Origin: a virus
Virus genome (UHGV): UHGV-0287696
DNA: 64,000 nucleotides
Direction: 5' to 3' (one strand)
Part shown: in pieces, positions 4,937 to 57,514 of the stretch
Numbering within the stretch: position 1 is the first letter of the stretch
Layout of the letters: every line of letters begins with the position of its first letter
The notes under the pieces: model-generated
Told to the model about the DNA's origin: nothing
The model's database searches: none
Seen by the model: the letters and a program-made list of their open reading frames with translations, nothing else
Made by a program: the position numbers and the translations under genes

Positions 4937-4976
4937 TTTAAGATATATTTCATCTATGTGAGAATTCTCACTTAAC
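4937..4976 (+). promoter_or_regulatory. promoter-like box (divergent copy) with leader hairpin
   Basis: tttaagatatatttcatc...gtgagaattctcac-ttaactaaa; related to the AGATATAT boxes at 18790, 22591, 54647 and 58936; sits about 20 nt upstream of the ATG at 4995. Confidence 0.35.
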
Positions 4977-15592: not shown

Positions 15593-16096
15593 ATGGGGGT
15601 AGCATCTGGATGGGTCGGTTCTTCGGCCAAGAACGAAACGGGCGAACAATGGATGAGCGCTGCTGGTAGTAAATTAGGATTGGGTAGACCTTTTATGATG
15701 AGTCAAATGGTGGGACGATCAATGGGCTGTAAAATTGCAACTGCTGCATATAGCGATTCTTTAGGTAAGAAATGGGGCGCGGTAGGGCCAAGCTGGCCGT
15801 TAAACCAGAAAAATCAGGGAACCATTCAAAACGCGGGTAACTGCGGGGTGGGAACTTTAGTAGGTATCGAGTTACAGTTAACGACGATAGTTGCTAACGC
15901 AAAACCCACTTTAGCGGTTTACTTACAAGGTGGGAGAGCCTCTAACATTACCGTAAATTTAGGTGGCAACACTTGTACGCTGACCTATCAGCAGGTTATT
16001 AACGGACAGCATTATTACTGGACTAATAACATCAGCGCTGCGTTCCAAAACGTGATGAAATCAACCGGTACACTGAGAGATTTCAAAATTAGTTAA
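15593..16096 (+). CDS. hypothetical Gly/Ser-rich protein downstream of the tail fibre
   Basis: 167-aa ORF starting 3 nt after the fibre stop. Confidence 0.5.
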   Translation: MGVASGWVGSSAKNETGEQWMSAAGSKLGLGRPFMMSQMVGRSMGCKIATAAYSDSLGKKWGAVGPSWPLNQKNQGTIQNAGNCGVGTLVGIELQLTTIVANAKPTLAVYLQGGRASNITVNLGGNTCTLTYQQVINGQHYYWTNNISAAFQNVMKSTGTLRDFKIS

Positions 16097-47535: not shown

Positions 47536-50500
47536 TTAATCGCGAATGATTACCGCCTGCACTTTATTGTTGGTGTCGATAAACGACATTACGCGCTCCT
47601 TGTTAAGATAAGGAGGTATCGGTAACGCAGCGTAATCCGCCAGGTTGTTATTAAATTCAGTTGCCACTAACGCATTAAGCGTTTCGGGGTCTGAACTGAC
47701 ACCGGTCAATTCCATAACGCGCACACGATTTAATGAGGAATAGTTGCTAATATAGTCTAACAACGTACCATAGACTTTATTCGCGGTTGCGCTGTCTGCC
47801 GTAGAACGGATGTTGGCACGAACTTCATCCTCATAAAGTCCCCCTAAACCGTAGTAAATAGGGGTATACGGATCGTTAACGATAGGTGCGATATTGAACC
47901 CTGTTAGACGGTCAGTTAGAGGGATTTTCTGCGTAGCTCCCCCTGCTGCCGTGCAACTTACGTATTTATCGGTCGCAGATAAAAACACCACGATGGTATA
48001 CGTAGTGCCCGCTAAGGTCAGTGTTGCGTTAAACGTTAATGCGTTGTTTGCAGCACGGGTGTGGGTAAACGTTACGTCAGGTTGTAACGTATTCCACGGT
48101 GCAGGCGTAACACGCTTCGTTGGTGTGAAACCTAACACTACCGATTTCCCGCTACCGAAGTTCAAACCGAACCCTGCGTAACAATATTCACCGTTGCTGT
48201 CAGTTAAACGATAACCACGAGTGATAAGTAACGACAACCGCATAAACTCGCCGTCGGTGTTTTTCCAACAACCTAAAACAGTTTCTAACACCGTGCCGGT
48301 TTTTGCGTTGCTTTCTGTTTCCCAACTGACTCGCATTCCTGCGTTCTTAAAAGCTGGGAACATGTTGTGGATAAACCCGTGTAGGTTATCGCTTACCCCT
48401 TTCGCGTCAAAAATCCACTTGGATGCGAGCTGGTCGTATTTCATCCCGTCTAAAGCTTTATACTGCCCACCGGCAACATAACGCCAATCTGCTTCACCGC
48501 GTACTACTGCCTGGAGTCCAGAAGCCCAGCAAGGCGCGCCTACCGTTAAGTTAGCTAACCCAAGCGTTGCACGTGACGCGGAGCGCTGAATGTGTGCGTT
48601 GTCATCGGCTTTATGATCTTTCAGTTCACGGAAATCACCCAACCGTGTGACATTACGCATCTCCGTAACGAACACCTCAGAAATGTCGTTGACGCCGATC
48701 AAACCCACACGCGTCATGGTATCCGTTTCAGCCTGACTGTAGCTGTCGTGGACAATATACTTCGCTTTGTTGTCAACAATATCAACAAAAATCCCTGCGT
48801 AGATTTCTGTATTCAATTTCGGAAAACGTTCACTGACGTTAATCGTCATCAACGGAACGTCGTACGTTTCACCACCGATAAAATACGTTGAAGCTGGAAG
48901 CGTGACCAGAATTTTGTCTTTGACCGTAAGGTCTATTAAGTCGTTACCAGACTCACCAAAACGTATAATGTCAAGACGTGCCTCCGAGTCAACGCCGCTG
49001 ACAGCGCGCTCCAATTTTTCAATCTGGGAAGTCTGCGCCATTACCACACTCCCATCGAGTGCTAAAGTCGCATCATCCACATCCAGACCAAATTTAATCA
49101 GACCACGTTGCGCTGTGGTTGCGTTCCCAGTACCAAAAGCGGTAAACGGGTGTTGGTGAACTTTAGGCGAGTATTTATCTAACTCCGCACGTTGTGCTGT
49201 AGAAATCGGTAAATCGGCATCGGGCGTATTCGCAACGTTACCTAAACCAAAGGTAATCTTATCGATAGTAACCGAGCTGGTAAGTTGCATGTCGTTAATG
49301 TACGATTTAACTGCAACTAACTTACCGGTGAACTCCGCATCGAGTTTTTCAATCAGTGCTGGCGTTGCTGCAAGGTTTTCAGCGGTACCAAACTCATCGG
49401 TCAACTGCCAAGCTGCCAGAGCTGTTGTATCGGTCGCGGTAGGAAGAATAAAGGTCGCTACGAACGGCGAGGCTTTTATCCCGCTACCGGTGATCGTAAC
49501 CGTTGTTGTCGAGTTTGCGTAGAATAAACCTGTACCACCTGCGGTATTGCCCGGCAGATACGGGGCTACGGTGGTGGGGTCTAAGAGTTTTTTACCACGC
49601 CACAACAATCCTCGGTCATCGGGGTATAGCACAAGCTGGTTAGTACCTGCTTGGAACGTTACGGGGTTGTTACCCACGTTAACATCAGTAGAACCTTGAC
49701 CGATGAACTTAATGGATTTCGGATCAACGACAAACTGAGCGCCTAAACGTGTCTCGTCAACAACATCCGGTGCTTTCTTAATGGTAACCGTGTTACCTTT
49801 GTTTTGCGAACTAATGGTAACGGCGTCGGCAACATTATTGATCAGCGATTTAAAGTGGTGCTGATTCTCTAATGCTTCTAACGCAGCGTCCATGTTATTG
49901 AAGTTAATCCGACCGCTATACGTTTTACTGTTTACGGTAATAACGACGTCAAACACATTCCCTGTACGCTTCAGTTGAAAACGTAGCGTAAAATCCCCAT
50001 CCGGTATTGCCGGATTAGGAGCTTGCGAAATATACCGAACTGCCGGTACCGGACTCCCGTAACCGTGCAACGCCAGTTCGATAGTAAGAGTACCGGACCA
50101 GACTTCACCGCTAATCTCTACGTACTTACCGGAGTTACTACCAGGATTTTCGTAAAAACGTAAACCAACCCTACCGACCGCTTCATTACCAGACGCTGTT
50201 TTACGTCCAGTAACAATAAAGTCAATATCTTGCAGGTTGGCAGGCACCGCATTAAAGTTAGCACTGAAACCGCTTTTCGTTCCTGTGTAACGAAGCGCGC
50301 CGTGATATCTGTGACCACTACTAACATAGCTTTCGCTAAAATAAGGACTCACGTATTTCGACATCGAGACCGGATCAACTTCCGTCGTGAACGAAGTAAA
50401 ACCAGGAAGTGTGGCAATCGTGCCGTTAACGTTCTTGCTCGCCGATTCACGAAGCAGTTTTTTCTGTGCGGTTAACGTTGCTTGTGTTGGGTACTTAGCA

Positions 50501-51858
50501 TTAACGTAATCCGTTAACTGCTGTTTCGTTTTCCCGTAAGCTAACGCGGCATCCGACGCAATACCATTCAGCTCTAACGCACGGATCGGACCCCACGTAT
50601 CGGTGTGCGGGTTGTCCTTACGTGTAACGTGTTCGTGTGCAGGCGCGTTACGATACAGCTGCTCAACTAACTGATGGTATTTGACTATTAACTGGTAGAC
50701 ATCGTTATCGACGTCAGGTTCTGGTGCGCCGGGTAAAGAACGAATTTGAATATAATCGTTTTCGGCCGCATACCAGTTTAAATTAATGTTCGTTTTAAAC
50801 TTCAACCATTTAGCAACATCCGTTTTCGAATATCCTGCCGAGAACTCATCAGGCGGCGTATCGACGTTGAATGTGTAATCCATGGTCTGTTTATTTGTTT
50901 TTACTACGATGACGTAAACACCGTTTCCGGGTTGACGGGTTACACTAAAATCGATATCGTTTTTTAACTCATCGTCAGTTAAACCGTTGATTAACGTATA
51001 ATCGTAGTTTGTTGAACCGCTACCAATAGCGACCGTTAAGACCAGTGAGATTTTGCGCTGTTTTAGCTGCAACCGTAGAATACTTGCACCGCCGTTAGCA
51101 TAACAGAGCATCCAATCGATCTGTTCGTTTGGATTCAATTTCGTCATGTCTGGCAGAATAGCAGGAATTCTGTGTTTCACTGACAGGGCGTAGTCGTTAA
51201 AGGTTGCAGTTTTATAACTCAAGCTATAACGATGACGGGTAGTGTTGTAGGTGAAGCCACCTTTATTGTCGTATACGGCATACTGCTCGGAAGTGATAAC
51301 CTTGCTATTAGCACGGTATTCTAAATCCAGGGTATTGCGTGCGATGGGGTTAAGCCGACTCACGACTTCCCCTAACGAATCGCCTAATCCAGCAATAGCC
51401 TGCATTAACTCCAGTTCACCTTTCCAATTCTCCCAATCGAACTGGATATCGACCGGTGGAAAGTAAACGTCCCCGATGACGGTGTCCCACTGACACGCAG
51501 TCGGGTATTTATCTTTATTGAGTTCGCGTTCTGCGGTAATCTGTTGTTGGGTAGCCTGACCACAACCAACGGCGTGGTAATCTACCGTAAAATTCGATTT
51601 GTATTTGTCATTAACAATCCAAATCATCCCGTGAATGAGATAGGCTGTGCGCAACATACCGGTCTCGTACGGGTGTGTAATAACGTAATCGTCGCCTAAG
51701 GTCAGTGTTTTGCCGCCGCTCTTGACCACCAGGGATGTGGTGAAAAAAGGGGCGTGGGCAGGTACCAACATTCGGTATTTCGTACCAATGACGGCGACCG
51801 CTTCACCGGTTATTTTATTCCCCGGTTTTTTGAAGTGTGGGTCTAAGACGACAGCCAT
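47536..51858 (-). CDS. large tail fibre/baseplate-associated structural protein
   Basis: 1440 aa; shared N-terminal module APFFTTSLVVKSGGKTLTLGDDYVITH; KVHQHPFTAFG motif. Confidence 0.75.
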   Translation of the reverse strand: MAVVLDPHFKKPGNKITGEAVAVIGTKYRMLVPAHAPFFTTSLVVKSGGKTLTLGDDYVITHPYETGMLRTAYLIHGMIWIVNDKYKSNFTVDYHAVGCGQATQQQITAERELNKDKYPTACQWDTVIGDVYFPPVDIQFDWENWKGELELMQAIAGLGDSLGEVVSRLNPIARNTLDLEYRANSKVITSEQYAVYDNKGGFTYNTTRHRYSLSYKTATFNDYALSVKHRIPAILPDMTKLNPNEQIDWMLCYANGGASILRLQLKQRKISLVLTVAIGSGSTNYDYTLINGLTDDELKNDIDFSVTRQPGNGVYVIVVKTNKQTMDYTFNVDTPPDEFSAGYSKTDVAKWLKFKTNINLNWYAAENDYIQIRSLPGAPEPDVDNDVYQLIVKYHQLVEQLYRNAPAHEHVTRKDNPHTDTWGPIRALELNGIASDAALAYGKTKQQLTDYVNAKYPTQATLTAQKKLLRESASKNVNGTIATLPGFTSFTTEVDPVSMSKYVSPYFSESYVSSGHRYHGALRYTGTKSGFSANFNAVPANLQDIDFIVTGRKTASGNEAVGRVGLRFYENPGSNSGKYVEISGEVWSGTLTIELALHGYGSPVPAVRYISQAPNPAIPDGDFTLRFQLKRTGNVFDVVITVNSKTYSGRINFNNMDAALEALENQHHFKSLINNVADAVTISSQNKGNTVTIKKAPDVVDETRLGAQFVVDPKSIKFIGQGSTDVNVGNNPVTFQAGTNQLVLYPDDRGLLWRGKKLLDPTTVAPYLPGNTAGGTGLFYANSTTTVTITGSGIKASPFVATFILPTATDTTALAAWQLTDEFGTAENLAATPALIEKLDAEFTGKLVAVKSYINDMQLTSSVTIDKITFGLGNVANTPDADLPISTAQRAELDKYSPKVHQHPFTAFGTGNATTAQRGLIKFGLDVDDATLALDGSVVMAQTSQIEKLERAVSGVDSEARLDIIRFGESGNDLIDLTVKDKILVTLPASTYFIGGETYDVPLMTINVSERFPKLNTEIYAGIFVDIVDNKAKYIVHDSYSQAETDTMTRVGLIGVNDISEVFVTEMRNVTRLGDFRELKDHKADDNAHIQRSASRATLGLANLTVGAPCWASGLQAVVRGEADWRYVAGGQYKALDGMKYDQLASKWIFDAKGVSDNLHGFIHNMFPAFKNAGMRVSWETESNAKTGTVLETVLGCWKNTDGEFMRLSLLITRGYRLTDSNGEYCYAGFGLNFGSGKSVVLGFTPTKRVTPAPWNTLQPDVTFTHTRAANNALTFNATLTLAGTTYTIVVFLSATDKYVSCTAAGGATQKIPLTDRLTGFNIAPIVNDPYTPIYYGLGGLYEDEVRANIRSTADSATANKVYGTLLDYISNYSSLNRVRVMELTGVSSDPETLNALVATEFNNNLADYAALPIPPYLNKERVMSFIDTNNKVQAVIIRD

Positions 51859-51926
51859 TCTCTACTCCTATAGTCCGTGGGCGTCGAAGTTCATACTATG
51901 ACTTGAATCTATAGAGGAAAAGAGCT

Positions 51927-53189
51927 GTGACTACTGCTTATCAAGTGCGGCCCGACAGCGCTTTTGGCTTCTCTCGAGAGTCCCGTACCTGGGGAGCCAT
52001 CGATGTCACGCAACCCTTAAATACGTTGTGTTCAGACTACCACACCTTTGAGATCGGTTTAAGTGCACTTGGTAAAGACTATACGTTAGTCAGCCAATAC
52101 CATCTTGCCGAACTACAAAACCGAACAGACACTTTACAAGATTGGTTAAATGAAAAAGCCGGAAACGTCATCCCTACTCTAAAAGCCGGATTGCCGAAAC
52201 TCGAATTCGGTTGGGCACATTACCAATCGATTAATGCCGACGTACCCGTTGAAACATATCTGTGTCCGCCTGGGTACCACCACAGTCAAGATTTCAGCTT
52301 AGATGATGCTGATGACGTTGTCATCGTTTGTGAGGACAAGTGGAAGGACAAATACCGTAATAGCGTTCTGTACAACATTAACGGTCAATGGGTACCGCAC
52401 CAGACAGATACCGTAGGTGTCCGATTACCCGGGGCCGGTAAAATCGTACGAAGAGCCTGTACGCCAGATATCGGCTGTATGGTTTTTGGTCAGTTAGGGA
52501 ATGTTAAAACTTACCCCATTGCCAACCTTACCCTAAACAAGCTCGATACTACACGTGACTATTACTCCACGTTAATGATTTCGCTGCCCGAATCTATCAC
52601 GGGAAAAACGGTGGGTTTCGTCATCGGTGGACTGTTACGTTGGTTGCCTCCGGGGGGTTATTTCTCCGACCGCGCGATCATGATTTCTTTACCGAATTTT
52701 GATCTTGCACGGACCGTTCTGGAAACCCGTCGCTATTACGACTGGGACGCCATCGGTGTGGGTGATTTATCAACGCCTACTAATGTCCAACGTATTCGCA
52801 ACCCCGAAACATTAAAGGCACTTTTACTCCACGAGTCTTCGTTTATCTTTACGGTAGATAATCCGTATTTAGAAGAAGAGGTTGTGGGTGTATCGCATAA
52901 CGCAGTTTGGGGACGTTGTTATCTCAAGGACCCTAGCGATCCTGATTCTGAAAAACCATTAGGGTACTTAAATAATCGCTTCGGAAAGACGGTGGGCTAT
53001 TGGCCTACATGGGAGGAGGGTGAGTGGGTATTTAACACCACCGAATTCGACAGTCAAAACTACGTCTTTCGTGAAGCCCGGTGGTATAATCAGAAGAAGA
53101 TTAACGACGCGCAAGCAATCGTCGGTCCATTCGGTCCCTGGGAAAAAGTGTATTTAGAAATGCATCGCTTTAGAGCACGAAAAAAATAA
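51927..53189 (+). CDS. hypothetical protein (divergent from the fibre operon)
   Basis: 420 aa; GTG start with AGAGGAAAAGAG upstream; only 68 bp from the divergent start at 51858. Confidence 0.55.
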   Translation: MTTAYQVRPDSAFGFSRESRTWGAIDVTQPLNTLCSDYHTFEIGLSALGKDYTLVSQYHLAELQNRTDTLQDWLNEKAGNVIPTLKAGLPKLEFGWAHYQSINADVPVETYLCPPGYHHSQDFSLDDADDVVIVCEDKWKDKYRNSVLYNINGQWVPHQTDTVGVRLPGAGKIVRRACTPDIGCMVFGQLGNVKTYPIANLTLNKLDTTRDYYSTLMISLPESITGKTVGFVIGGLLRWLPPGGYFSDRAIMISLPNFDLARTVLETRRYYDWDAIGVGDLSTPTNVQRIRNPETLKALLLHESSFIFTVDNPYLEEEVVGVSHNAVWGRCYLKDPSDPDSEKPLGYLNNRFGKTVGYWPTWEEGEWVFNTTEFDSQNYVFREARWYNQKKINDAQAIVGPFGPWEKVYLEMHRFRARKK

Positions 53190-53240: not shown

Positions 53241-53450
53241 TTAGTCTTTTTTGTAGACAATTGCGTTACCGTGCAGTTTGTTGTTGCCGGAAATACCGAT
53301 AACTTTGAATGCGTCGCCGCCAATTTTTTCAGCTTCAGCAGCCAGCTTACCCGTTACATGATCAACGGTGTCGCCGAAAGCGCTAACGTTACCGATTTTC
53401 TTAAACTCTTCTGGAATATGCTCAGCAGAAGAGAACTCTTTAATAGACAT
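53241..53450 (-). CDS. small hypothetical protein
   Basis: ORF track frame 53241..53468 starts at TTG; ATG at 53450 with GGAGAG upstream gives 69 aa (MSIKEFSSAEH...); flanked by hairpins at 53195-53220 and 53515-53535. Confidence 0.55.
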   Translation of the reverse strand: MSIKEFSSAEHIPEEFKKIGNVSAFGDTVDHVTGKLAAEAEKIGGDAFKVIGISGNNKLHGNAIVYKKD

Positions 53451-53656
53451 AACAGCTCTCCATTTCAAAAGGAAGGTGGTCTAAGACCGACGTGTGTTAC
53501 AACCGAAGCATAAGATAGCTCCTCCCCGTAGGGAGGAGTAGAGTGCGCGAAAAAAGTGGCCTGCTTAACTAAACGATGGGTTTAAGAAAAGTGTTGATAA
53601 AAAGCTTTACCAACGTCAGGTCACAATATATAAACACAACGTAAGAAAAAGGGGAA

Positions 53657-54622
53657 TTATTGCGGAGGTGATGTCGGACCATGTTTACCTTGGTGAATGT
53701 GAACGCTAAAGGTAATACCGGAAATAATGGCATCTTTAACCGTAAAGACACCCACACCCTCACCCGTACCACCGTATTTGAAGTTCTTAGCGACTTCCAA
53801 ATTACCGGTGAACATCGCTTCCTTCCCTTCCTGTTTAAAGTTCGGCGTTTTGAACGTTGTCGAACTGCCCGCTTCCGTTAACCAGGTTTGTGTTTTAAAC
53901 GTAACGGAATTCGCTGCTTCCGTATTGCGGACTTCACATTTTTCATTAATCGTTTTCGTTTCCAGGTTAATAGAACGCTTTGAATAAATGAACGCATCTT
54001 CTTTGTTGATGTTCACTTTTGAAAGCATCGCATTCTCAAACCCGAGATCATCTTCAACCGAGTTAATGTAATACTTGTTTCCTTTATGGTCAACGCACTG
54101 CCACGTACCGTTTGCATTATCAAACTGAAACAACCACGCCGCTTTCTCGCCATTCACCATACTTGTTCTTAGCGTGATATGTTTGTCAATCGTCGAAACG
54201 TTCAACACATACGCATTGGACAAGTCATCCGCCATTTGGTTTTCAGGGTCAGCCGACCACGCATAAACCGCATCTTCTAATCGCTTAACGTTAGCGAAGT
54301 TCAGATCAATCCAAAAATAAATATCGGTTTTCCCCAAACGTAACAAGATAACGTAGTCTTCTCGTTTAACGTCAGGGGAATTAATTCGGTTGGAGTTAAA
54401 CTTCCACCACTTTGCTGTTATCGTGTTACCCGTCTTAATGGTTAGGTTATCTGTTGCACCAGATGTTTCATGCGTCTTTTCAGTTGCTGAAGAAACAGAT
54501 TGCACCACGGTAGGGTTAGCAAAGTTGGTTTCAATTGGTATCACTTTTACCCGATCTGTACCACGGGGTTTGTCTTCCGCGACGATACCAATTGAGAAAA
54601 AATCAACACTGGATTTCTCCAT
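53657..54622 (-). CDS. hypothetical protein, possibly structural
   Basis: 321 aa; AAGGA Shine-Dalgarno; the 11-mer plus hairpin element lies upstream. Confidence 0.55.
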   Translation of the reverse strand: MEKSSVDFFSIGIVAEDKPRGTDRVKVIPIETNFANPTVVQSVSSATEKTHETSGATDNLTIKTGNTITAKWWKFNSNRINSPDVKREDYVILLRLGKTDIYFWIDLNFANVKRLEDAVYAWSADPENQMADDLSNAYVLNVSTIDKHITLRTSMVNGEKAAWLFQFDNANGTWQCVDHKGNKYYINSVEDDLGFENAMLSKVNINKEDAFIYSKRSINLETKTINEKCEVRNTEAANSVTFKTQTWLTEAGSSTTFKTPNFKQEGKEAMFTGNLEVAKNFKYGGTGEGVGVFTVKDAIISGITFSVHIHQGKHGPTSPPQ

Positions 54623-54646
54623 CGGGACGTTCCTTAGATCGGAATT

Positions 54647-54677
54647 GATTTCAGATATATTTTACTTAAGTGAATAG
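54647..54677 (+). promoter_or_regulatory. promoter-like box GATTTCAGATATATTTTACTTAAGTGAATAG
   Basis: fourth copy of the AGATATAT box family, in a divergent intergenic region. Confidence 0.4.
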
Positions 54678-54710
54678 GGACTGAACTGGTACTTCAGTCC
54701 CTACGGACAC
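54677..54710 (-). promoter_or_regulatory. conserved 11-mer GTGTCCGTAGG (minus-strand sense) plus hairpin upstream of a minus-strand gene
   Basis: cctacggacac at 54700-54710 matches 43285-43295 exactly; hairpin gggactgaa-ctggtac-ttcagtccc. Confidence 0.45.
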
Positions 54711-54817
54711 GTTACCCTTTTAGTACCTTTCGTTAAAGGTTACTAAAAATTACATTATGTCCCTTTATTCTGCTACTCGGGATACCGGTAGGGGGTAGGG
54801 GGCATTATGTATACGGA

Positions 54818-54825
54818 TATAAATA
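54818..54825 (+). promoter_or_regulatory. TATAAATA element (T4-type late promoter consensus) in a 260-bp intergenic region
   Basis: exact TATAAATA octamer about 118 nt upstream of the ATG at 54943; flanked by two copies of gtatacgga. Confidence 0.3.
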
Positions 54826-54942
54826 GCGGAGGTATACGGAGTATACCGACATACTCTTCCCAGAGGAACGTAGTGACTTCCTTATACCTCTTTTACAATC
54901 CATAATAATAGCCTTCCCTTCATTGGGATTAGTGAGTAAATC

Positions 54943-55680
54943 ATGAGAGAATTATTAGACGATATCTTTACCAACACCAGTTTAGAACTTTCTTCTACGG
55001 TGGTTAACGAACTAATAAAACAATCGCAACCTGCTAAGTTAATCGATGCTGGAACAATTAAACCTGAAGATTATCCAGACAGTGACGTTATCGACGGTAT
55101 GATTGACGAATACGTGATAGGTAGTTACGCCAACCGCGTCTTCTTTGTTTTTAATACCGAAACCAGTGTCATGTTAATCTATAAGTTGATCAGTGACGCC
55201 GAACTTGAAGTAATGGCTGACCACATTCGTCTCCTTGCGAACACGCCTACTAGTATCGCTGATGTGCTTATTGGGAACGGTTGGCCTTTACCACCACTAT
55301 TCTCTTACTTCCCTCTGTTTAGAAATGGGATAGGGTTACTCCGAAATGCAGAAAACCTTCCCGATAACGTCGAGTTATCACTGCTTGGACCTGGCATCGA
55401 TCTTTGTCCATTAGAAGACGAGGGCACGCTATATGGTTTACGCATTTATGTTTCTGTGTTAGAGGGATACCGTATCATCGAGTTAATTGCATCAGACTTA
55501 GCAAAACAGATCCCTGATGTAGAAACGATTTCTAAAGCCACCCACCTGGTTGAGATTAACCCGGACGATCCCTTATTGAAATATCACGAGAAAATTGATC
55601 TTCGTAAAATCGCCGCGATGAGAGGGTGGGGTTGTGCTGAGATTACGAAGGACTGTCTGCTGTTAATTAAAACCGCGTAA
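54943..55680 (+). CDS. member of a tandem four-gene paralog family (C-terminal GW...QLLF motif)
   Basis: 245 aa; C-terminus IAAMRGWGCAEITKDCLLLIKTA is a divergent form of the motif seen in the next three genes. Confidence 0.55.
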   Translation: MRELLDDIFTNTSLELSSTVVNELIKQSQPAKLIDAGTIKPEDYPDSDVIDGMIDEYVIGSYANRVFFVFNTETSVMLIYKLISDAELEVMADHIRLLANTPTSIADVLIGNGWPLPPLFSYFPLFRNGIGLLRNAENLPDNVELSLLGPGIDLCPLEDEGTLYGLRIYVSVLEGYRIIELIASDLAKQIPDVETISKATHLVEINPDDPLLKYHEKIDLRKIAAMRGWGCAEITKDCLLLIKTA

Positions 55681-55710
55681 TTAAGAAAACCGAAAAAAGG
55701 AGAATATACC

Positions 55711-56265
55711 ATGTTTCAAACTGAACTGAAAAATGAAATTATCCAAACCCTTGAAAAGGGCGTAGGCGAACATTTCTTTGTCCGTCCTTATACCGTACTG
55801 ACCAATACCATTATTCAGCCAGGTGCGATGATAGTAGGGGTAAGTGTACAAGCTGTGGAGGAAACCCCACTGCGTCGCAACATCACACGTAAAACCCATA
55901 TCCCGTTTAGAACGGGTTTTACAGATTACTTTCAGAGCTTACTGAAAGATAGCGTTTGGAAAACAGGCAGCTTCTTCCACGAAGGGAAGACTTCCACGCT
56001 GGTTTATAAAGAGAACACCAAGTATCTGGTCGATTTTCTCTTAGCGCGTCAGTATACTTTCTTTCCAACCCCTACTGACTGCACCCCAGACAACCCAGGT
56101 AAGTTATTAAACCAAAGCGAAGCCGAGGCACTCTTTACAAGACTTCGGAATGAGCAGTGCGATGTTGACGACTGGGAAACATTGATCGCGGTCGCTAAAG
56201 CCCACGGTTGGTATACCGTACGTAAACTCGGTCAGCAGCTGTTGTTCTTAGCTTACCCTGCTTAA
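55711..56265 (+). CDS. member of a tandem four-gene paralog family
   Basis: 184 aa; C-terminus AKAHGWYTVRKLGQQLLFLAYPA. Confidence 0.6.
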   Translation: MFQTELKNEIIQTLEKGVGEHFFVRPYTVLTNTIIQPGAMIVGVSVQAVEETPLRRNITRKTHIPFRTGFTDYFQSLLKDSVWKTGSFFHEGKTSTLVYKENTKYLVDFLLARQYTFFPTPTDCTPDNPGKLLNQSEAEALFTRLRNEQCDVDDWETLIAVAKAHGWYTVRKLGQQLLFLAYPA

Positions 56266-56295
56266 GTAACGAAAAACCCCTAAAGGAGAGTAAAA

Positions 56296-57447
56296 ATGCG
56301 AAATATTATTTCTAAACCAGGACATGTCAAAATCCTAAAAGAACTGATGGACAGATGCTATAATCGGACTTGGTCGCTACCAAGCTTAACCATCGAGTCT
56401 TCATTACAACGTGAGTTGTTTGGTTATAACTTGGGCTGCTGTGTACTTACTGAATACAATGAGATTATCGCGCCTGTCGATGTCTGTACTTACGATGAAG
56501 AAATTGAAGGTTACAAGTTCGCGGTTTACACAAATTGTGGACTAAATTACCGTAAACTCGTTGTTAGGGAAAAGAGTAGCAGCCGGAAGATTATGTTTAA
56601 GGTCTTCCCAAGTGGTAAAGTCAGTAATTTATGTTTTCAGCTTGAGAAAGTGCCCTTTCACGGTGCGGACATTTTAACTAAACCAGAACTCGCGTTATTA
56701 AGCGGGTTAATTGGTTTTGAAGCAAAAACCATCAAAGTTGAGCAGGAACTTACACGAAACGATTTCGGCTCAACTTGGTACGAAAGTTTCTTCCGCTACG
56801 AAATGTTAAGTGATAAAGCTATCAAACTCACTTACCGTTCTACCGACGACATCGTTTACCACATTTTAATTAGCGGCGAACCCCACCAGATTATTGAAGA
56901 CGAAGGAGAAAAATCCGTGCGTACCTTAAAAGATGAATTAACTGATTTTGTTAACAAAATTGATAACGTGGGTATCAGTGAATTATTATTCCCGATTCAA
57001 CATCCAGAGTTGCTTGACGAGAAATCTGAAAACGTGGTTATGGGTGTGCATTTACTTCCTGACCATCTTGCTATCTACCGTACACTTTCTAAGAACCAAC
57101 TTAAAGTGTGGTGTCTGTTAAAAGACCTTTTAACAGAGGCGGGGTGGTCGTGTAGTGTAGATGTTAACTGTGAAGGAGTTGCGTTCTTCATCACAATAGG
57201 CAATCGTAGTTTTTCTGTCGATTTACCTACTCGCAGCTATTACGATTTCTTCCCGACCGCAGAAGGACGTACTGAAAAAGAACCCGCATTACTGCTCAGT
57301 GCTGAGGAGTCCAATGCGTTAATGGCGAAGCTAAAGGCGAAAGACGAGAAGTTGGATGCTTTACATCTACCTATAATCGGAAAAGATTACGGTTGGGCTG
57401 ACGTGCAAAAATACGGCAGTCAGCTGTTGTTTGTTGCTGACCTTTAA
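56296..57447 (+). CDS. member of a tandem four-gene paralog family
   Basis: 383 aa; C-terminus DYGWADVQKYGSQLLFVADL. Confidence 0.6.
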   Translation: MRNIISKPGHVKILKELMDRCYNRTWSLPSLTIESSLQRELFGYNLGCCVLTEYNEIIAPVDVCTYDEEIEGYKFAVYTNCGLNYRKLVVREKSSSRKIMFKVFPSGKVSNLCFQLEKVPFHGADILTKPELALLSGLIGFEAKTIKVEQELTRNDFGSTWYESFFRYEMLSDKAIKLTYRSTDDIVYHILISGEPHQIIEDEGEKSVRTLKDELTDFVNKIDNVGISELLFPIQHPELLDEKSENVVMGVHLLPDHLAIYRTLSKNQLKVWCLLKDLLTEAGWSCSVDVNCEGVAFFITIGNRSFSVDLPTRSYYDFFPTAEGRTEKEPALLLSAEESNALMAKLKAKDEKLDALHLPIIGKDYGWADVQKYGSQLLFVADL

Positions 57448-57473
57448 TAAGTGAAAATACACTTTCTCTAACT

Positions 57474-57499
57474 GCCGCGCTTTAGTCGCGGCTTTTGTT
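57474..57499 (+). terminator. rho-independent terminator
   Basis: hairpin gccgcgc-tttag-tcgcggc followed by ttttgtt. Confidence 0.6.
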
Positions 57500-57514
57500 A
57501 AGAAGGAAATAGAA

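What the first reader, a model, noticed from the sequence alone, without database searches (positions are those of the whole stretch)
54680..54942. 260-bp divergent intergenic region with TATAAATA, direct repeats and hairpins
This is the longest non-coding stretch in the window and separates a minus-strand gene from the plus-strand paralog array. It contains an AGATATAT box, the 11-mer plus hairpin, an exact TATAAATA octamer (the T4-type late promoter consensus), two copies of GTATACGGA 15 nt apart, and a G-run (gggggtaggggg). It is a candidate control region or small RNA locus.
Basis: seen in the sequence. Interest (0 to 1): 0.45.

Follow-up and report, generated by a model that had tools for sequence, protein, structure and literature searches.

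The report
Jumbo-phage early promoter plus conserved RNA element
The gap is a real control region of a giant (SPN3US/phiKZ-type) phage: it holds one copy of the phage's own early promoter and a single-copy, very strongly conserved non-coding element that probably works as a folded RNA and matches no Rfam family or paper I could search. It is not a T4-style late promoter.

Summary
The true gap is 54623-54942 (320 bp), the longest in the window. The window is a jumbo phage distantly related to SPN3US and Erwinia phages, which carry their own RNA polymerases.

1. The AGATATAT box is the core of a ~25-nt promoter. It has 5 copies in the window, all intergenic and rightward, with 0 expected by chance. 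In SPN3US the same motif sits 46 nt upstream of the non-virion RNA polymerase genes, so it is the early (virion-polymerase) class. The predicted start is G54672, and the 11-bp hairpin begins at +4.

2. 54704-54748 is the scar of a 25-codon micro-ORF that relatives still carry.

3. 54760-54885 is nearly invariant in 14 genomes of the genus: 4/126 variable columns, against 101/600 in the baseplate gene. Its skeleton (G-run, GCGGAGG, covarying hairpin, CGAC-N-UCCUU) recurs once per genome, at the same position, in at least five named genera. Clade-level consensus folds and G.U pairs favour a rightward RNA three-way junction. Rfam has no match. Function is unknown.

TATAAATA occurs once (3.7 expected) and is not conserved outside the genus.

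The parts
53657..54622 (-). Left flanking gene: baseplate assembly / puncture-device protein (context)
   Evidence: PHROG 3216, E 9e-114. Homologues are annotated as baseplate assembly protein in SPN3US, Asesino and phiKZ gp164.
54649..54673 (+). Early (virion-RNA-polymerase type) promoter copy, TTTCAGATATATTTTACTTAAGTGA; the AGATATAT box is 54653-54660
   Evidence: 4 matches to the 25-nt pattern with 0 expected. 5 PWM sites, all + strand and intergenic. The same family is found in SPN3US, Asesino, CR5, PCH45 and others. In SPN3US it lies upstream of the nvRNAP genes.
54672..54672 (+). Predicted transcription start (G), 6 nt after AGATATATTTTAC
   Evidence: Inferred by analogy with AR9 AAATATATATTAT-N6-G(+1) and with phiKZ/phiR1-37 (PMC5312081). 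Not mapped.
54675..54703 (+). Hairpin 1 (11-bp stem, 7-nt loop) at +4..+32 of the predicted early transcript
   Evidence: I1. -16.8 kcal/mol, z -4.0. Stems covary and the loop is found in both orientations among 14 genus genomes. All five promoter copies are followed by a hairpin at +1..+4.
54704..54748 (+). Deletion scar of a 25-codon micro-ORF, plus hairpin 2 (arms 54718-54730 / 54736-54748)
   Evidence: Relatives L004, L005, L006, L048, L049, L051 and L057 carry about 100 extra bp here that encode MSTEKKSGLDEVIELFKRYNPAIPR or MFAEQKDGIEEVVRLFRHYSPYLPR. The segment is absent in the window, L003, L045, L046 and L050.
54745..54754 (+). AAAAATTACA: invariant TTAC, 37 nt upstream of the G-run; candidate second (middle-like) promoter element for the conserved element
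   Evidence: TTAC is invariant in alignment A1. Spacing to the G-run is 31-39 nt in all 23 loci. It resembles the phiKZ middle motif, an A-rich run plus TAC(T) centred at -22 (PMC8244752, PMC4666361). Promoter function is inferred.
54760..54885 (+). Ultra-conserved non-coding block
   Evidence: 4 of 126 columns vary among 14 genus genomes, against 101/600 in the baseplate CDS and 64-90% in the flanking non-coding DNA.
54787..54870 (+). Match to covariance model R1: proposed three-way junction RNA (P1, P2, P3)
   Evidence: 72.2 bits, E 3e-18. It is the only match in the window, there is one per relative locus, and one in the whole SPN3US genome. No Rfam match.
54791..54802 (+). G-run GGGGGTAGGGGG, proposed 5' strand of closing helix P1
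   Evidence: Invariant G columns in A1/A2. RNAfold and clade-level RNAalifold pair it with the pyrimidine tract. P1 itself is only moderately supported.
54805..54822 (+). P2 hairpin (TTATGT / ATATAA); it includes most of the second CATTATGT, the first GTATACGGA (loop) and the start of TATAAATA
   Evidence: Weak in the window (-1.2 kcal/mol) but strong in other genera (-7 to -12). It is far more stable on the + strand than on the - strand because of G.U pairs.
54826..54832 (+). GCGGAGG, conserved junction sequence (SD-like, contains GGA)
   Evidence: The GAG core (G42 A43 G44 of A2) is invariant and the preceding C and G are at least 90% conserved in A2.
54831..54847 (+). P3 hairpin GGTATAC-GGA-GTATACC (second GTATACGGA copy plus GTATACCGA)
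   Evidence: 6 of 7 pairs show changes on both sides and 90% of cells are paired. RNAalifold recovers it on the full alignment. The only within-genus change (54839) is in the loop.
54847..54861 (+). CGACAT plus pyrimidine tract ACTCTTCCC (3' strand of P1; CGAC-N-TCCTTTATTC in other genera)
   Evidence: C60 G61 A62 C63 are invariant in A2. Pairing with the G-run appears.
54862..54885 (+). Second GGA...GAC-N-TCCTTAT unit (AGAGGAACGTAGTGACTTCCTTAT), a small hairpin
   Evidence: Also present in Erskinevirus (EaH2, Asesino) and, as the only unit, in Phobos, Derbicus and CR5. GGAA/TTCC versus GGAG/CTCC is a compensatory change.
54887..54897 (+). CCTCTTTTACA: T-rich+TAC motif, candidate promoter element for the gene at 54943
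   Evidence: In the window, TTTTTAC occurs in intergenic DNA upstream of + genes at 799, 4239, 6333, 26014, 61245 and 62465. In SPN3US, TTTTTTAC is intergenic in 10 of 13 cases. Function is inferred.
54901..54907 (-). Minus-strand TATTATG: candidate late (TATG-type) promoter for the baseplate gene in this subgroup
   Evidence: The core TAnTATGA marks late genes in SPN3US (9 of 13 intergenic) and in the window. The window subgroup has this TATTATG but lacks the TACTATGA that the L004 subgroup carries at the hairpin-2 position. Low confidence.
54943..55680 (+). Right flanking gene, first of the plus-strand paralogue array (context)
   Evidence: ORF. No Pfam or PHROG match.

Best explanation
The 320-bp gap is a compound transcription-control region of a nucleus-forming-type jumbo phage of the SPN3US/Erwinia-phage group. 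It has three parts.

(a) Left end. This is one of five copies in the window of the phage's own early promoter (consensus aaTTTCAGATATATaTTACtTAaGTGAGA). It is read by the virion RNA polymerase and fires rightward at about G54672. The transcript starts with the 11-bp hairpin, a 5'-terminal stem-loop that probably protects the RNA end.

(b) Middle. This is what remains after a dispensable 25-codon micro-ORF was deleted.

(c) Right part, 54745-54885. This is a single-copy element fixed at this genome position in several genera. I think it acts as RNA. It would be transcribed rightward, from the early promoter in this genus and from an invariant T/A-rich TTAC motif 31-39 nt upstream of the G-run in all genera. 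It would fold into a three-way junction: the G-run pairs with the pyrimidine tract (P1), enclosing P2 and P3, with GCGGAGG and CGAC left as conserved single-stranded junctions. The most likely role is a protein-recognised leader or small RNA that controls the fate of the rightward transcript (stability, termination or translation).

Shown: recurrence and orientation of the promoter; conservation; single-copy status; synteny; covariation of P3; strand asymmetry.

Inferred: temporal class; start site; that the element is transcribed; P1; any molecular function.
For: Promoter:
- 5 sites, all + strand and intergenic, 54-71 nt upstream of start codons at the other four copies.
- 25-nt pattern: 4 hits with 0 expected.
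- The same family hits unannotated DNA at several places per genome in SPN3US-like, Erwinia, Cronobacter and Serratia jumbo phages.
- In SPN3US, 11 well-formed + strand copies. These include one 46 nt upstream of ACQ60_gp232/231 (= gp34/gp35; gp35 is the nvRNAP beta' subunit by PMC5105663) and one upstream of the gp23 operon.
- The format matches AR9 AAATATATATTAT-N6-G(+1) (PMC5312081).
- 5' hairpins follow all five copies.
- Hairpin-1 stems covary within the genus.

Conserved element:
- 4/126 variable columns against 101/600 in the baseplate CDS.
- Model R1 finds exactly one copy in each relative locus with baseplate identity of about 42% or more (full-length matches), one in the whole SPN3US genome (E 2e-16; next best 5.1), and none elsewhere in the window.
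- blastn finds one place per record in 35 records, nearly all unannotated.
- 81% of cells are paired, against 43-58% with slid partners. P3 has 6/7 compensatory pairs.
- P2 energies on + versus - strand are, for example, -11.3/-3.1, -7.2/-1.5 and -11.8/-2.9.
- Clade-level RNAalifold recovers P1+P2+P3 on the + strand: -21.1 vs -7.3; -11.2 vs -5.3; -19.7 vs -12.0.
- The within-genus change inside P3 (54839) is at the centre of its loop.
Against: - No transcript data exist for this phage or, as far as I could find, for any close relative.
- The window's own copy does not fold better than shuffles (z -0.87), and its P2 is weak (-1.2 kcal/mol).
- RNAalifold on the full 28-sequence alignment recovers only P3.
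- P1 is G.U-rich, largely invariant, and competes with a possible GGAG:CUCC pairing.
- P2 is absent in Erskinevirus and Derbicusvirus.
- P3 is a perfect palindrome, so it says nothing about strand or about RNA versus DNA.
- Near-total invariance within the genus, loops and linkers included, exceeds what secondary structure alone requires. It would also fit a DNA site or overlapping signals on both strands.
- The alignment used for pair counts was fitted to the model.
- The downstream gene differs between genera, which argues against a gene-specific leader.
Confidence: 0.6

Rival explanations
1. The conserved block works as DNA, not RNA. One version: it is a unique protein-binding or divergent-promoter region for the baseplate and rightward units. 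Another version: it is a replication origin of the R-loop or hairpin type, in which a promoter-like TTAC motif is followed by two G5 clusters on the non-template strand and then by palindromes.
For: It is single-copy per genome and locked to one position. Almost every nucleotide is invariant within the genus, loops included. The G clusters begin 31-39 nt downstream of an invariant TTAC. P3 is a perfect palindrome with a 3-nt loop in several genera. The block sits at a switch of transcription direction. From general knowledge, G clusters downstream of a promoter favour R-loops (T4 oriF/oriG, ColE1, mitochondrial CSBII), and phage N4 uses DNA-hairpin promoters. These are analogies only and were not tested.
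Against: P2 keeps G.U pairs that would be A.C mismatches on the other strand or in a DNA cruciform. Consensus folds are much better on the + strand. Stems change sequence completely between genera while staying paired, which a sequence-specific duplex-DNA binder would not tolerate. No AT-rich unwinding element or iteron array is evident. The composition and skew profile around the gap is unremarkable.
Confidence: 0.25
2. One reading: TATAAATA is a T4-type late promoter (gp55-directed host RNA polymerase) driving the rightward genes, with the repeats acting as regulator boxes.
For: An exact TATAAATA lies at 54818-54825, 118 nt upstream of the + gene.
Against: The octamer occurs once in 64 kb, against 3.7 expected. 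None lies upstream of the window's structural genes, which carry TAnTATGA instead. It is not conserved in SPN3US, EaH2, ChrisDB, Kwan or Phobos at the homologous place. The phage group uses its own vRNAP and nvRNAP (PMC7598289, PMC5105663). The octamer overlaps the 3' arm of predicted helix P2.
Confidence: 0.03
3. The non-coding stretch is mostly decayed coding sequence: a remnant of the micro-ORF, or of the 105-aa gene that follows the block in SPN3US and EaH2. It would have no function of its own. The block would be conserved only because it is a recombination 'boundary' shared between mosaic modules.
For: 54704-54748 really is a deletion scar. The flanks are mosaic: there are three micro-ORF variants, hairpin flips and differing downstream genes. 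SPN3US and EaH2 have a 105-aa gene right after the block where the window has none.
Against: The block carries no conserved ORF. The ATG at 54807 gives 32 codons in the window, runs into the next gene in L004, and stops after 6 codons in SPN3US. Between-genus indels are not multiples of three. It is conserved across genera whose coding DNA is only 60-75% identical. Decay predicts the opposite of 3% variable columns.
Confidence: 0.07

Closest known systems
Early (virion RNA polymerase) promoters of phiKZ-related jumbo phages, e.g. AR9 AAATATATATTAT-N6-G(+1) and the phiKZ extended -10 with an upstream T-rich part (PMC5312081, PMC8244752, PMC7598289)
   Same: A long, highly conserved AT-rich motif that can be found bioinformatically. 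It occurs in many co-oriented copies upstream of operons of small hypothetical genes and of the nvRNAP genes. A G lies 6 nt after the motif.
   Different: The consensus is its own (TTTCAGATATATATTACTTAAGTGAGA). No start site or timing has been measured for this phage group. Here the copy sits 290 nt from the start codon rather than about 55-70 nt. A hairpin begins at +1..+4 in all five copies.
phiKZ late promoter 5'-TATG-3' with G = +1, read by nvRNAP (PMC4666361)
   Same: In this group, TAnTATGA is almost exclusively intergenic and lies upstream of the sheath, baseplate and other virion genes. The gap contains TATG on the + strand twice and on the - strand at 54850-54853 and 54901-54904.
   Different: The + strand copies read CATTATGT, not TAnTATGA. 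The first is not conserved within the genus. The window lacks the canonical copy that other genera have 20-40 nt before the baseplate start codon.
T4 late promoter TATAAATA (gp55/gp33/gp45 with host RNA polymerase; general knowledge)
   Same: Identical octamer.
   Different: A single occurrence that is not enriched. It is not at late genes and not conserved. The phage lineage has a different transcription machinery.
5'UTR-derived sRNA conserved by position among giant phages (201phi2-1 sRNA005 / phiKZ sRNA upstream of gp182; PMC11512511)
   Same: A short structured non-coding element next to a tail or baseplate-module gene. It is conserved across genera by position and by predicted fold.
   Different: It is a different locus: the gp182-family tail gene there, the neighbour of the gp164-family baseplate gene here. 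Here the element is divergent from the structural gene, not in its 5' UTR. phiKZ has only a 64-bp gap at the homologous place and no R1 match.
GGA-rich protein-sponge sRNAs (CsrB/RsmZ type) and cis-acting polymerase-modifying RNAs (HK022 put). General knowledge; analogies only.
   Same: Small multi-hairpin RNAs with conserved single-stranded purine motifs. GGA occurs 66 times against 22.6 expected in 25 orthologues.
   Different: There are only 1-5 GGA motifs per element, and only one is invariant. No binding data exist. The orthologues are related, so the counts are not independent.

Membership tests
Jumbo-phage vRNAP early promoter | Extended, highly conserved AT-rich motif centred near -10 | tested here: met
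   25-40 nt consensus; PWM scores 43-55 bits against 7 for the next best.
Jumbo-phage vRNAP early promoter | Many copies per genome, intergenic, co-oriented with the downstream operon | tested here: met
   5 of 5 in the window. 11 well-formed + strand copies in SPN3US, all 46-155 nt upstream of a + gene.
Jumbo-phage vRNAP early promoter | Drives genes that must be expressed before nvRNAP exists (the nvRNAP subunit genes) | tested here: met
   The SPN3US copy at 28968 is 46 nt upstream of gp34/gp35 (nvRNAP). The copy at 15613 is upstream of the gp23 operon (PMC5105663). Tested in a relative, not in the window's own phage.
Jumbo-phage vRNAP early promoter | Transcripts start about 6 nt downstream, appear within minutes, and are independent of protein synthesis | not testable with these tools
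   Needs 5'-end mapping with and without chloramphenicol.
T4-type late promoter | TATAAATA recurrent upstream of late (virion) genes | tested here: not met
   1 occurrence against 3.7 expected. Structural genes carry TAnTATGA instead.
T4-type late promoter | Conserved at the homologous site in relatives | tested here: not met
   Absent in SPN3US, EaH2, ChrisDB, Kwan and Phobos.
T4-type late promoter | Phage encodes gp55-type late sigma and uses host RNA polymerase | not tested
   Only 64 kb is available. Relatives encode vRNAP and nvRNAP (PMC5105663).
phiKZ-type late promoter (TATG) | Clade core TAnTATGA, co-oriented, 20-65 nt before a virion gene | tested here: inconclusive
   No exact core in the gap. 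There is a minus-strand TATTATG at 54901-54907, 279 nt from the baseplate start. Its distribution is complementary to the TACTATGA of the L004 subgroup.
Intrinsic terminator | G+C-rich hairpin directly followed by a U run | tested here: not met
   The scan finds none in 54623-54942. Hairpins 1 and 2 lack a T run on either strand.
Any Rfam 15 family | Covariance-model match | tested here: not met
   No hit at gathering score in the window. In 54300-55300 the only hits are chance-level, E 0.65-5.8. No tRNA or tmRNA.
Conserved structured non-coding RNA (new motif) | Sequence conservation well above neighbouring DNA | tested here: met
   3.2% variable columns, against 16.8% in the CDS and 64-90% in flanking non-coding DNA. 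Invariant columns persist across genera.
Conserved structured non-coding RNA (new motif) | Compensatory base changes in helices | tested here: met
   P3: 6/7 pairs. P1 and P2 have 2 pairs each and are only partly supported.
Conserved structured non-coding RNA (new motif) | Strand asymmetry (G.U pairs, better fold on one strand) | tested here: met
   P2 + versus - energies. Clade-level RNAalifold + versus -.
Conserved structured non-coding RNA (new motif) | The RNA exists in infected cells | not testable with these tools
   No transcriptome for this phage group was found in the literature searches.

The most novel reading that the evidence does not exclude
The 54787-54870 element is a new family of single-copy structured RNA. 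It is conserved at one fixed genome position in the SPN3US/Erwinia branch of jumbo phages: Seoulvirus, Erskinevirus, Machinavirus, Wellingtonvirus, Derbicusvirus and the window's own genus. In this reading it acts beyond its own operon. One possibility is a trans-acting RNA that titrates a host or phage RNA-binding protein; its GGA-rich junctions suggest CsrA/RsmA. Another is a G-rich transcript that forms an R-loop to prime replication.
Probability: 0.2. Interest if true: 0.7.

Novelty: new variant of a known kind. Interest (0 to 1): 0.45.

Why it matters
Transcription signals of jumbo phages have been mapped only for phiKZ, 201phi2-1, AR9 and a few others. For the SPN3US/Erwinia group, which has a genetic system and includes phages studied for biocontrol, I found no transcript map.

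This one gap yields three testable promoter motifs:
- early: TTTCAGATATATATTACTTAAGTGAGA
- late core: TAnTATGA
- a T-rich TAC motif

It also yields a single-copy non-coding element under stronger constraint than the adjacent baseplate gene. If that element is an RNA with a trans or replication role, it would be among the few conserved non-coding functions known in jumbo phages. It would also be an obvious target for the amber/CRISPR and antisense tools that now exist for these phages.

Tried and rejected
- Rfam scans, both permissive and at gathering score, and ARAGORN found nothing.
- The sigma-70 and intrinsic-terminator scan found nothing in the gap.
- GC content and skew around the gap are unremarkable and follow gene orientation. 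There is no origin signal.
- Thermodynamic significance of the window's element is not significant (z -0.87), so I rely on comparative evidence.
- RNAalifold on all 28 sequences recovers only P3. The three-way junction appears only in per-sequence folds and clade-level alignments.
- I looked for other copies or complementary targets of the G-run and of CGACATCCTTTATTC in the window. The results were at chance level.
- I considered the small ORFs in the gap (54807-54905 on +, 54805-54903 on -). They are not conserved.
- I considered that the two CATTATGT copies are phiKZ-type TATG promoters. The first is not conserved within the genus, and neither fits the clade core.
- The 12-nt complementarity 54829-54840 / 54879-54890 followed by TTTT could be a terminator alternative to P3, but it is not conserved in L013 or L004.
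- The homologous phiKZ locus (gp164) has only a 64-bp gap and no model match.
- Literature searches for a transcript map or a described RNA motif in SPN3US-like phages found none.
- IMG/VR and metagenome scans added close relatives but few new genera.
- The CsrA-sponge idea rests only on a roughly threefold GGA excess among related sequences. I kept it as a lead, not a finding.
Full report
**What the window is.** blastn of the region finds only distant matches: 68-78% identity, confined to the left flanking gene. The matches are in Salmonella phage SPN3US, Erwinia phages Asesino and Caitlin, and relatives of about 240 kb. The left gene (53657-54622, minus strand) is the baseplate assembly / puncture protein (PHROG 3216). 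tblastn finds it in 290 jumbo phages, including phiKZ gp164. Gene order around it matches SPN3US and Asesino: large virion proteins, a 420-aa gene, a DUF1471 gene, then the baseplate gene. This lineage transcribes with two phage-encoded multisubunit RNA polymerases, a virion enzyme for early genes and a non-virion enzyme for later genes (PMC7598289, PMC5105663).

**The observation.** The gap runs from 54623 to 54942 (320 bp) and is the longest in my ORF map. The ORF-poor right end of the window is filled by an SMC-like ORF that starts at 62500 and runs off the end.

**The AGATATAT box is a promoter.** AGATATAT occurs five times in 64 kb, at 4941, 18793, 22596, 54653 and 58941. Every copy is on the + strand and in intergenic DNA.
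- The contexts align over about 27-40 nt: aaTTTCAGATATATaTTACtTAaGTGAGA.
- A PWM separates the five sites (43-55 bits) from everything else (7 bits or less).
- A 25-nt degenerate pattern has 4 matches with 0 expected.
- At the other four copies the start codon follows 54-71 nt later. Here it is 290 nt away.
- The same motif lies in unannotated DNA at several places per genome in SPN3US-like, Erwinia, Cronobacter and Serratia jumbo phages. It follows the 105-aa gene in SPN3US and Asesino.
- In the complete SPN3US genome I found 11 well-formed + strand copies. One is 46 nt upstream of ACQ60_gp232/231 and one is upstream of the operon holding ACQ60_gp243.
- The RefSeq tags run backwards (gpN = 266 - tag). 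I checked this on gp241 and gp42 by protein length. These genes are therefore gp34/gp35 and gp23. gp35 is the nvRNAP beta' subunit (PMC5105663). I assign gp34 and gp23 to nvRNAP because the record annotates them as RNA polymerase beta subunits and they are not among the five vRNAP subunits that paper lists.
- A promoter that must make the non-virion polymerase is by logic a virion-polymerase (early) promoter. In phiKZ the nvRNAP subunits are early products (PMC4666361).
- The motif's format parallels AR9 AAATATATATTAT-N6-G(+1), and the phiKZ and phiR1-37 starts also lie 6 nt after the motif (PMC5312081). That places the start at G54672. This is an inference.

**The 11-mer hairpin.** From that start, all five transcripts begin with a hairpin at +1 to +4. 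The one in the finding is the strongest, at -16.8 kcal/mol with z = -4.0. Among 14 genomes of the window's genus the stem changes by compensatory pairs: GGACTGAA/TTCAGTCC, GAGCTGAA/TTCAGCTC, GGGTTGAA/TTCAACCC and GGGCTGAA/TTCAGCCC. The loop occurs in both orientations: CTGGTAC versus GTACCAG, and GTGCGAG versus CTCGCAC. The stem-loop is therefore selected, not the loop sequence. A 5'-terminal stem-loop that stabilises the RNA end is the simplest reading (general knowledge of 5'-end-dependent decay; not tested).

**The middle of the gap is a deletion scar.** Seven genus members carry about 100 extra bp between hairpin 1 and hairpin 2. These encode a 25-aa peptide with a ribosome-binding site (MSTEKKSGLDEVIELFKRYNPAIPR, or MFAEQKDGIEEVVRLFRHYSPYLPR in another variant). 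The differences between the variants leave the reading frame intact. Two members have frame-shifted versions. Five members, including the window, have lost it.

**The right part is a deeply conserved single-copy element.** In the 14 genus genomes, 54760-54885 varies at 4 of 126 columns. The comparison figures are 101/600 in the baseplate CDS, 22/81 in the promoter-hairpin segment and 64-90% in the other non-coding segments.
- Across genera the skeleton persists at the same place, between the baseplate gene and whatever rightward gene follows.
- The skeleton is: an invariant TTAC; then 31-39 nt; then GGGGG-N2-3-GGGGG; a variable hairpin; GCGGAGG; a second hairpin; CGAC-N-TCCTT(T)ATTC.
- A covariance model built on 18 sequences finds exactly one copy in every locus whose baseplate protein is about 42% or more identical over its full length. 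That includes three Derbicusvirus genomes not used in training.
- The model finds none in relatives at 32% identity or less, or in phiKZ. It finds none elsewhere in the window.
- It finds one in the whole SPN3US genome (E 2e-16; next best 5.1).
- blastn gives one place per record in 35 records, almost all unannotated.

**Is it RNA?**
- Per-sequence RNAfold independently gives the same three-way junction in most genera. P1 pairs the G-run with the pyrimidine tract after CGACAT. P2 lies right after the G-run. P3 lies between GCGGAG and CGAC.
- On the model-fitted alignment, 81% of cells pair, against 43-58% when partners are slid. P3 has compensatory changes at 6 of 7 pairs: ATAC/GTAT, ATCC/GGAT, ACTC/GAGT, ACCC/GGGT, GAC/GTC, AGC/GCT and GGAT/ATCC. 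P1 and P2 have two such pairs each.
- P2 contains G.U pairs and is far more stable on the + strand, for example -11.3 vs -3.1, -7.2 vs -1.5 and -11.8 vs -2.9 kcal/mol.
- RNAalifold on clade-level alignments recovers P1+P2+P3 on the + strand, with much better energy than on the minus strand.
- Against: RNAalifold on all 28 sequences recovers only P3.
- Against: the window's own copy is not thermodynamically unusual (z -0.87), and its P2 is weak.
- Against: P2 is missing in two genera.
- Against: the fitted alignment leans towards the model.
- Against: the near-total invariance within the genus exceeds what secondary structure alone requires.
- I therefore rate a rightward structured RNA as the most likely reading (about 0.55-0.6). 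A DNA-level site is the main rival (about 0.25).

- The G-run is the 5' strand of P1.
- The second CATTATGT (54803-54810) is the 5' arm of P2.
- TATAAATA (54818-54825) overlaps the 3' arm of P2.
- The first GTATACGGA lies mostly in the P2 loop.
- The second GTATACGGA is the 5' arm plus loop of P3, and GTATACCGA is its 3' arm. GTATAC is self-complementary, which creates the 'direct repeat'.
- TATAAATA occurs once against 3.7 expected and is absent at the homologous site outside the genus.
- The first CATTATGT (54753) varies within the genus.

**Other signals in and around the gap.**
- TAnTATGA is the late-type core in this group. In SPN3US, 9 of 13 copies lie in the 4.6% of the genome that is intergenic, upstream of the sheath, baseplate and other virion genes.
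- In the window all 3 copies are intergenic, although 7.3 would be expected overall. This matches the phiKZ TATG late promoter (PMC4666361).
- Other genera have this core on the minus strand 20-40 nt before the baseplate start codon. The window does not.
- Its subgroup instead has a minus-strand TATTATG at 54901-54907, in a segment that the other subgroup lacks. That other subgroup carries TACTATGA at the hairpin-2 position. This complementary pattern suggests, weakly, that the baseplate late transcript here starts at about 54901 and runs antisense through the element.
- A T-rich run ending in TAC(A/G) recurs upstream of + genes. In SPN3US, TTTTTTAC is intergenic in 10 of 13 cases. It brackets the element at 54745-54754 (A-rich variant) and 54887-54897.
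- It resembles the phiKZ middle motif (PMC8244752), but it overlaps terminator T-runs and is unproven.

**Function.** No tool here can show what the element does.
- The downstream gene differs between genera, and in L012 a strong terminator separates the element from the next promoter. Both facts argue against a gene-specific leader and for a stand-alone or operon-level RNA.
- GGA motifs are about threefold enriched (66 vs 22.6). This is a lead towards a CsrA/RsmA-type binder, but the sequences are related and only one GGA is invariant.
- The G clusters downstream of a promoter-like motif keep an R-loop origin alive as an alternative.
- Neither Rfam 15 nor the papers I could search describe this element.
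- The nearest published parallel is the position-conserved 5'UTR sRNA next to the gp182-family tail gene in 201phi2-1 and phiKZ (PMC11512511), which is at a different locus.

**Verdict.**
- The promoter part is a new member of a known class.
- The conserved element is a new non-coding motif of a known general kind, with unknown function.
- The T4-promoter reading is wrong.

Noticed in passing
window 54686-54692; L003, L013, L045-L050 and others at the homologous place: The 7-nt loop of hairpin 1 occurs as exact reverse complements in closely related genomes: CTGGTAC vs GTACCAG, and GTGCGAG vs CTCGCAC. The stem stays paired. This implies at least two independent flips of a perfect palindrome, probably by template switching.
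   Followed up: partly
L004:2790-2900 region (window orientation); absent from the window between 54703 and 54718: A 25-codon micro-ORF with its own ribosome-binding site lies directly behind the early promoter in 7 of 14 genus genomes. It comes in three sequence variants, is frame-shifted in 2 genomes, and is deleted in 5 including the window.
   Followed up: partly
window 51891-51901: TCATACTATGA is a quasi-palindrome that reads as a TAnTATGA late-type core on both strands. It lies between the divergent genes 47536-51858 (-) and 51927-53189 (+). The same arrangement occurs in SPN3US at 158706/158710. It is a compact bidirectional late promoter candidate.
   Followed up: partly
window 53241-53468 (-): A 75-aa YdgH/BhsA/McbA-like (DUF1471) protein, a bacterial stress and biofilm family, is encoded between virion genes. 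It is conserved in SPN3US, Kwan and pSal-SNUABM-04.
   Followed up: partly
window 799, 4239, 6333, 26014, 61245, 62465, 54891: A T-rich run ending in TAC(A/G) recurs 25-60 nt upstream of + strand genes, often directly after a terminator hairpin. In SPN3US, TTTTTTAC is intergenic in 10 of 13 cases. It may be a third (middle-like) promoter class.
   Followed up: partly
window, whole (pattern TANTATGA): The late-type core is depleted overall (3 vs 7.3 expected), yet all copies are intergenic and correctly oriented. This looks like selection against spurious starts inside genes.
   Followed up: no
window 54943-58879: Several consecutive + strand genes (245, 184, 383 and 257 aa) share a C-terminal motif (GW..V.K.G.QLLF.A). 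They and the 192-aa gene that follows have no Pfam match. The first member differs strongly between otherwise near-identical genomes (72% variable columns).
   Followed up: no
window 54809-54814, 54832-54837, 54841-54846; also 54829-54840 vs 54879-54890: Three GTATAC palindromes allow alternative pairings, and RNAfold of L013 chooses copy 1 with copy 3. A 12-nt complementarity followed by TTTT could compete with P3. Neither feature is conserved outside the species group.
   Followed up: partly
window 62500-64000 (+): An SMC/RecF-like ATPase ORF (Walker A GGNGCGKTS) runs off the right end of the window. It corresponds to the SPN3US 'SMC domain' gene.
   Followed up: no
window 32433-33755 (-): A radical SAM protein gene (PHROG 1802) is embedded in the minus-strand gene block that also holds the virion genes, as in SPN3US.
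   Followed up: no
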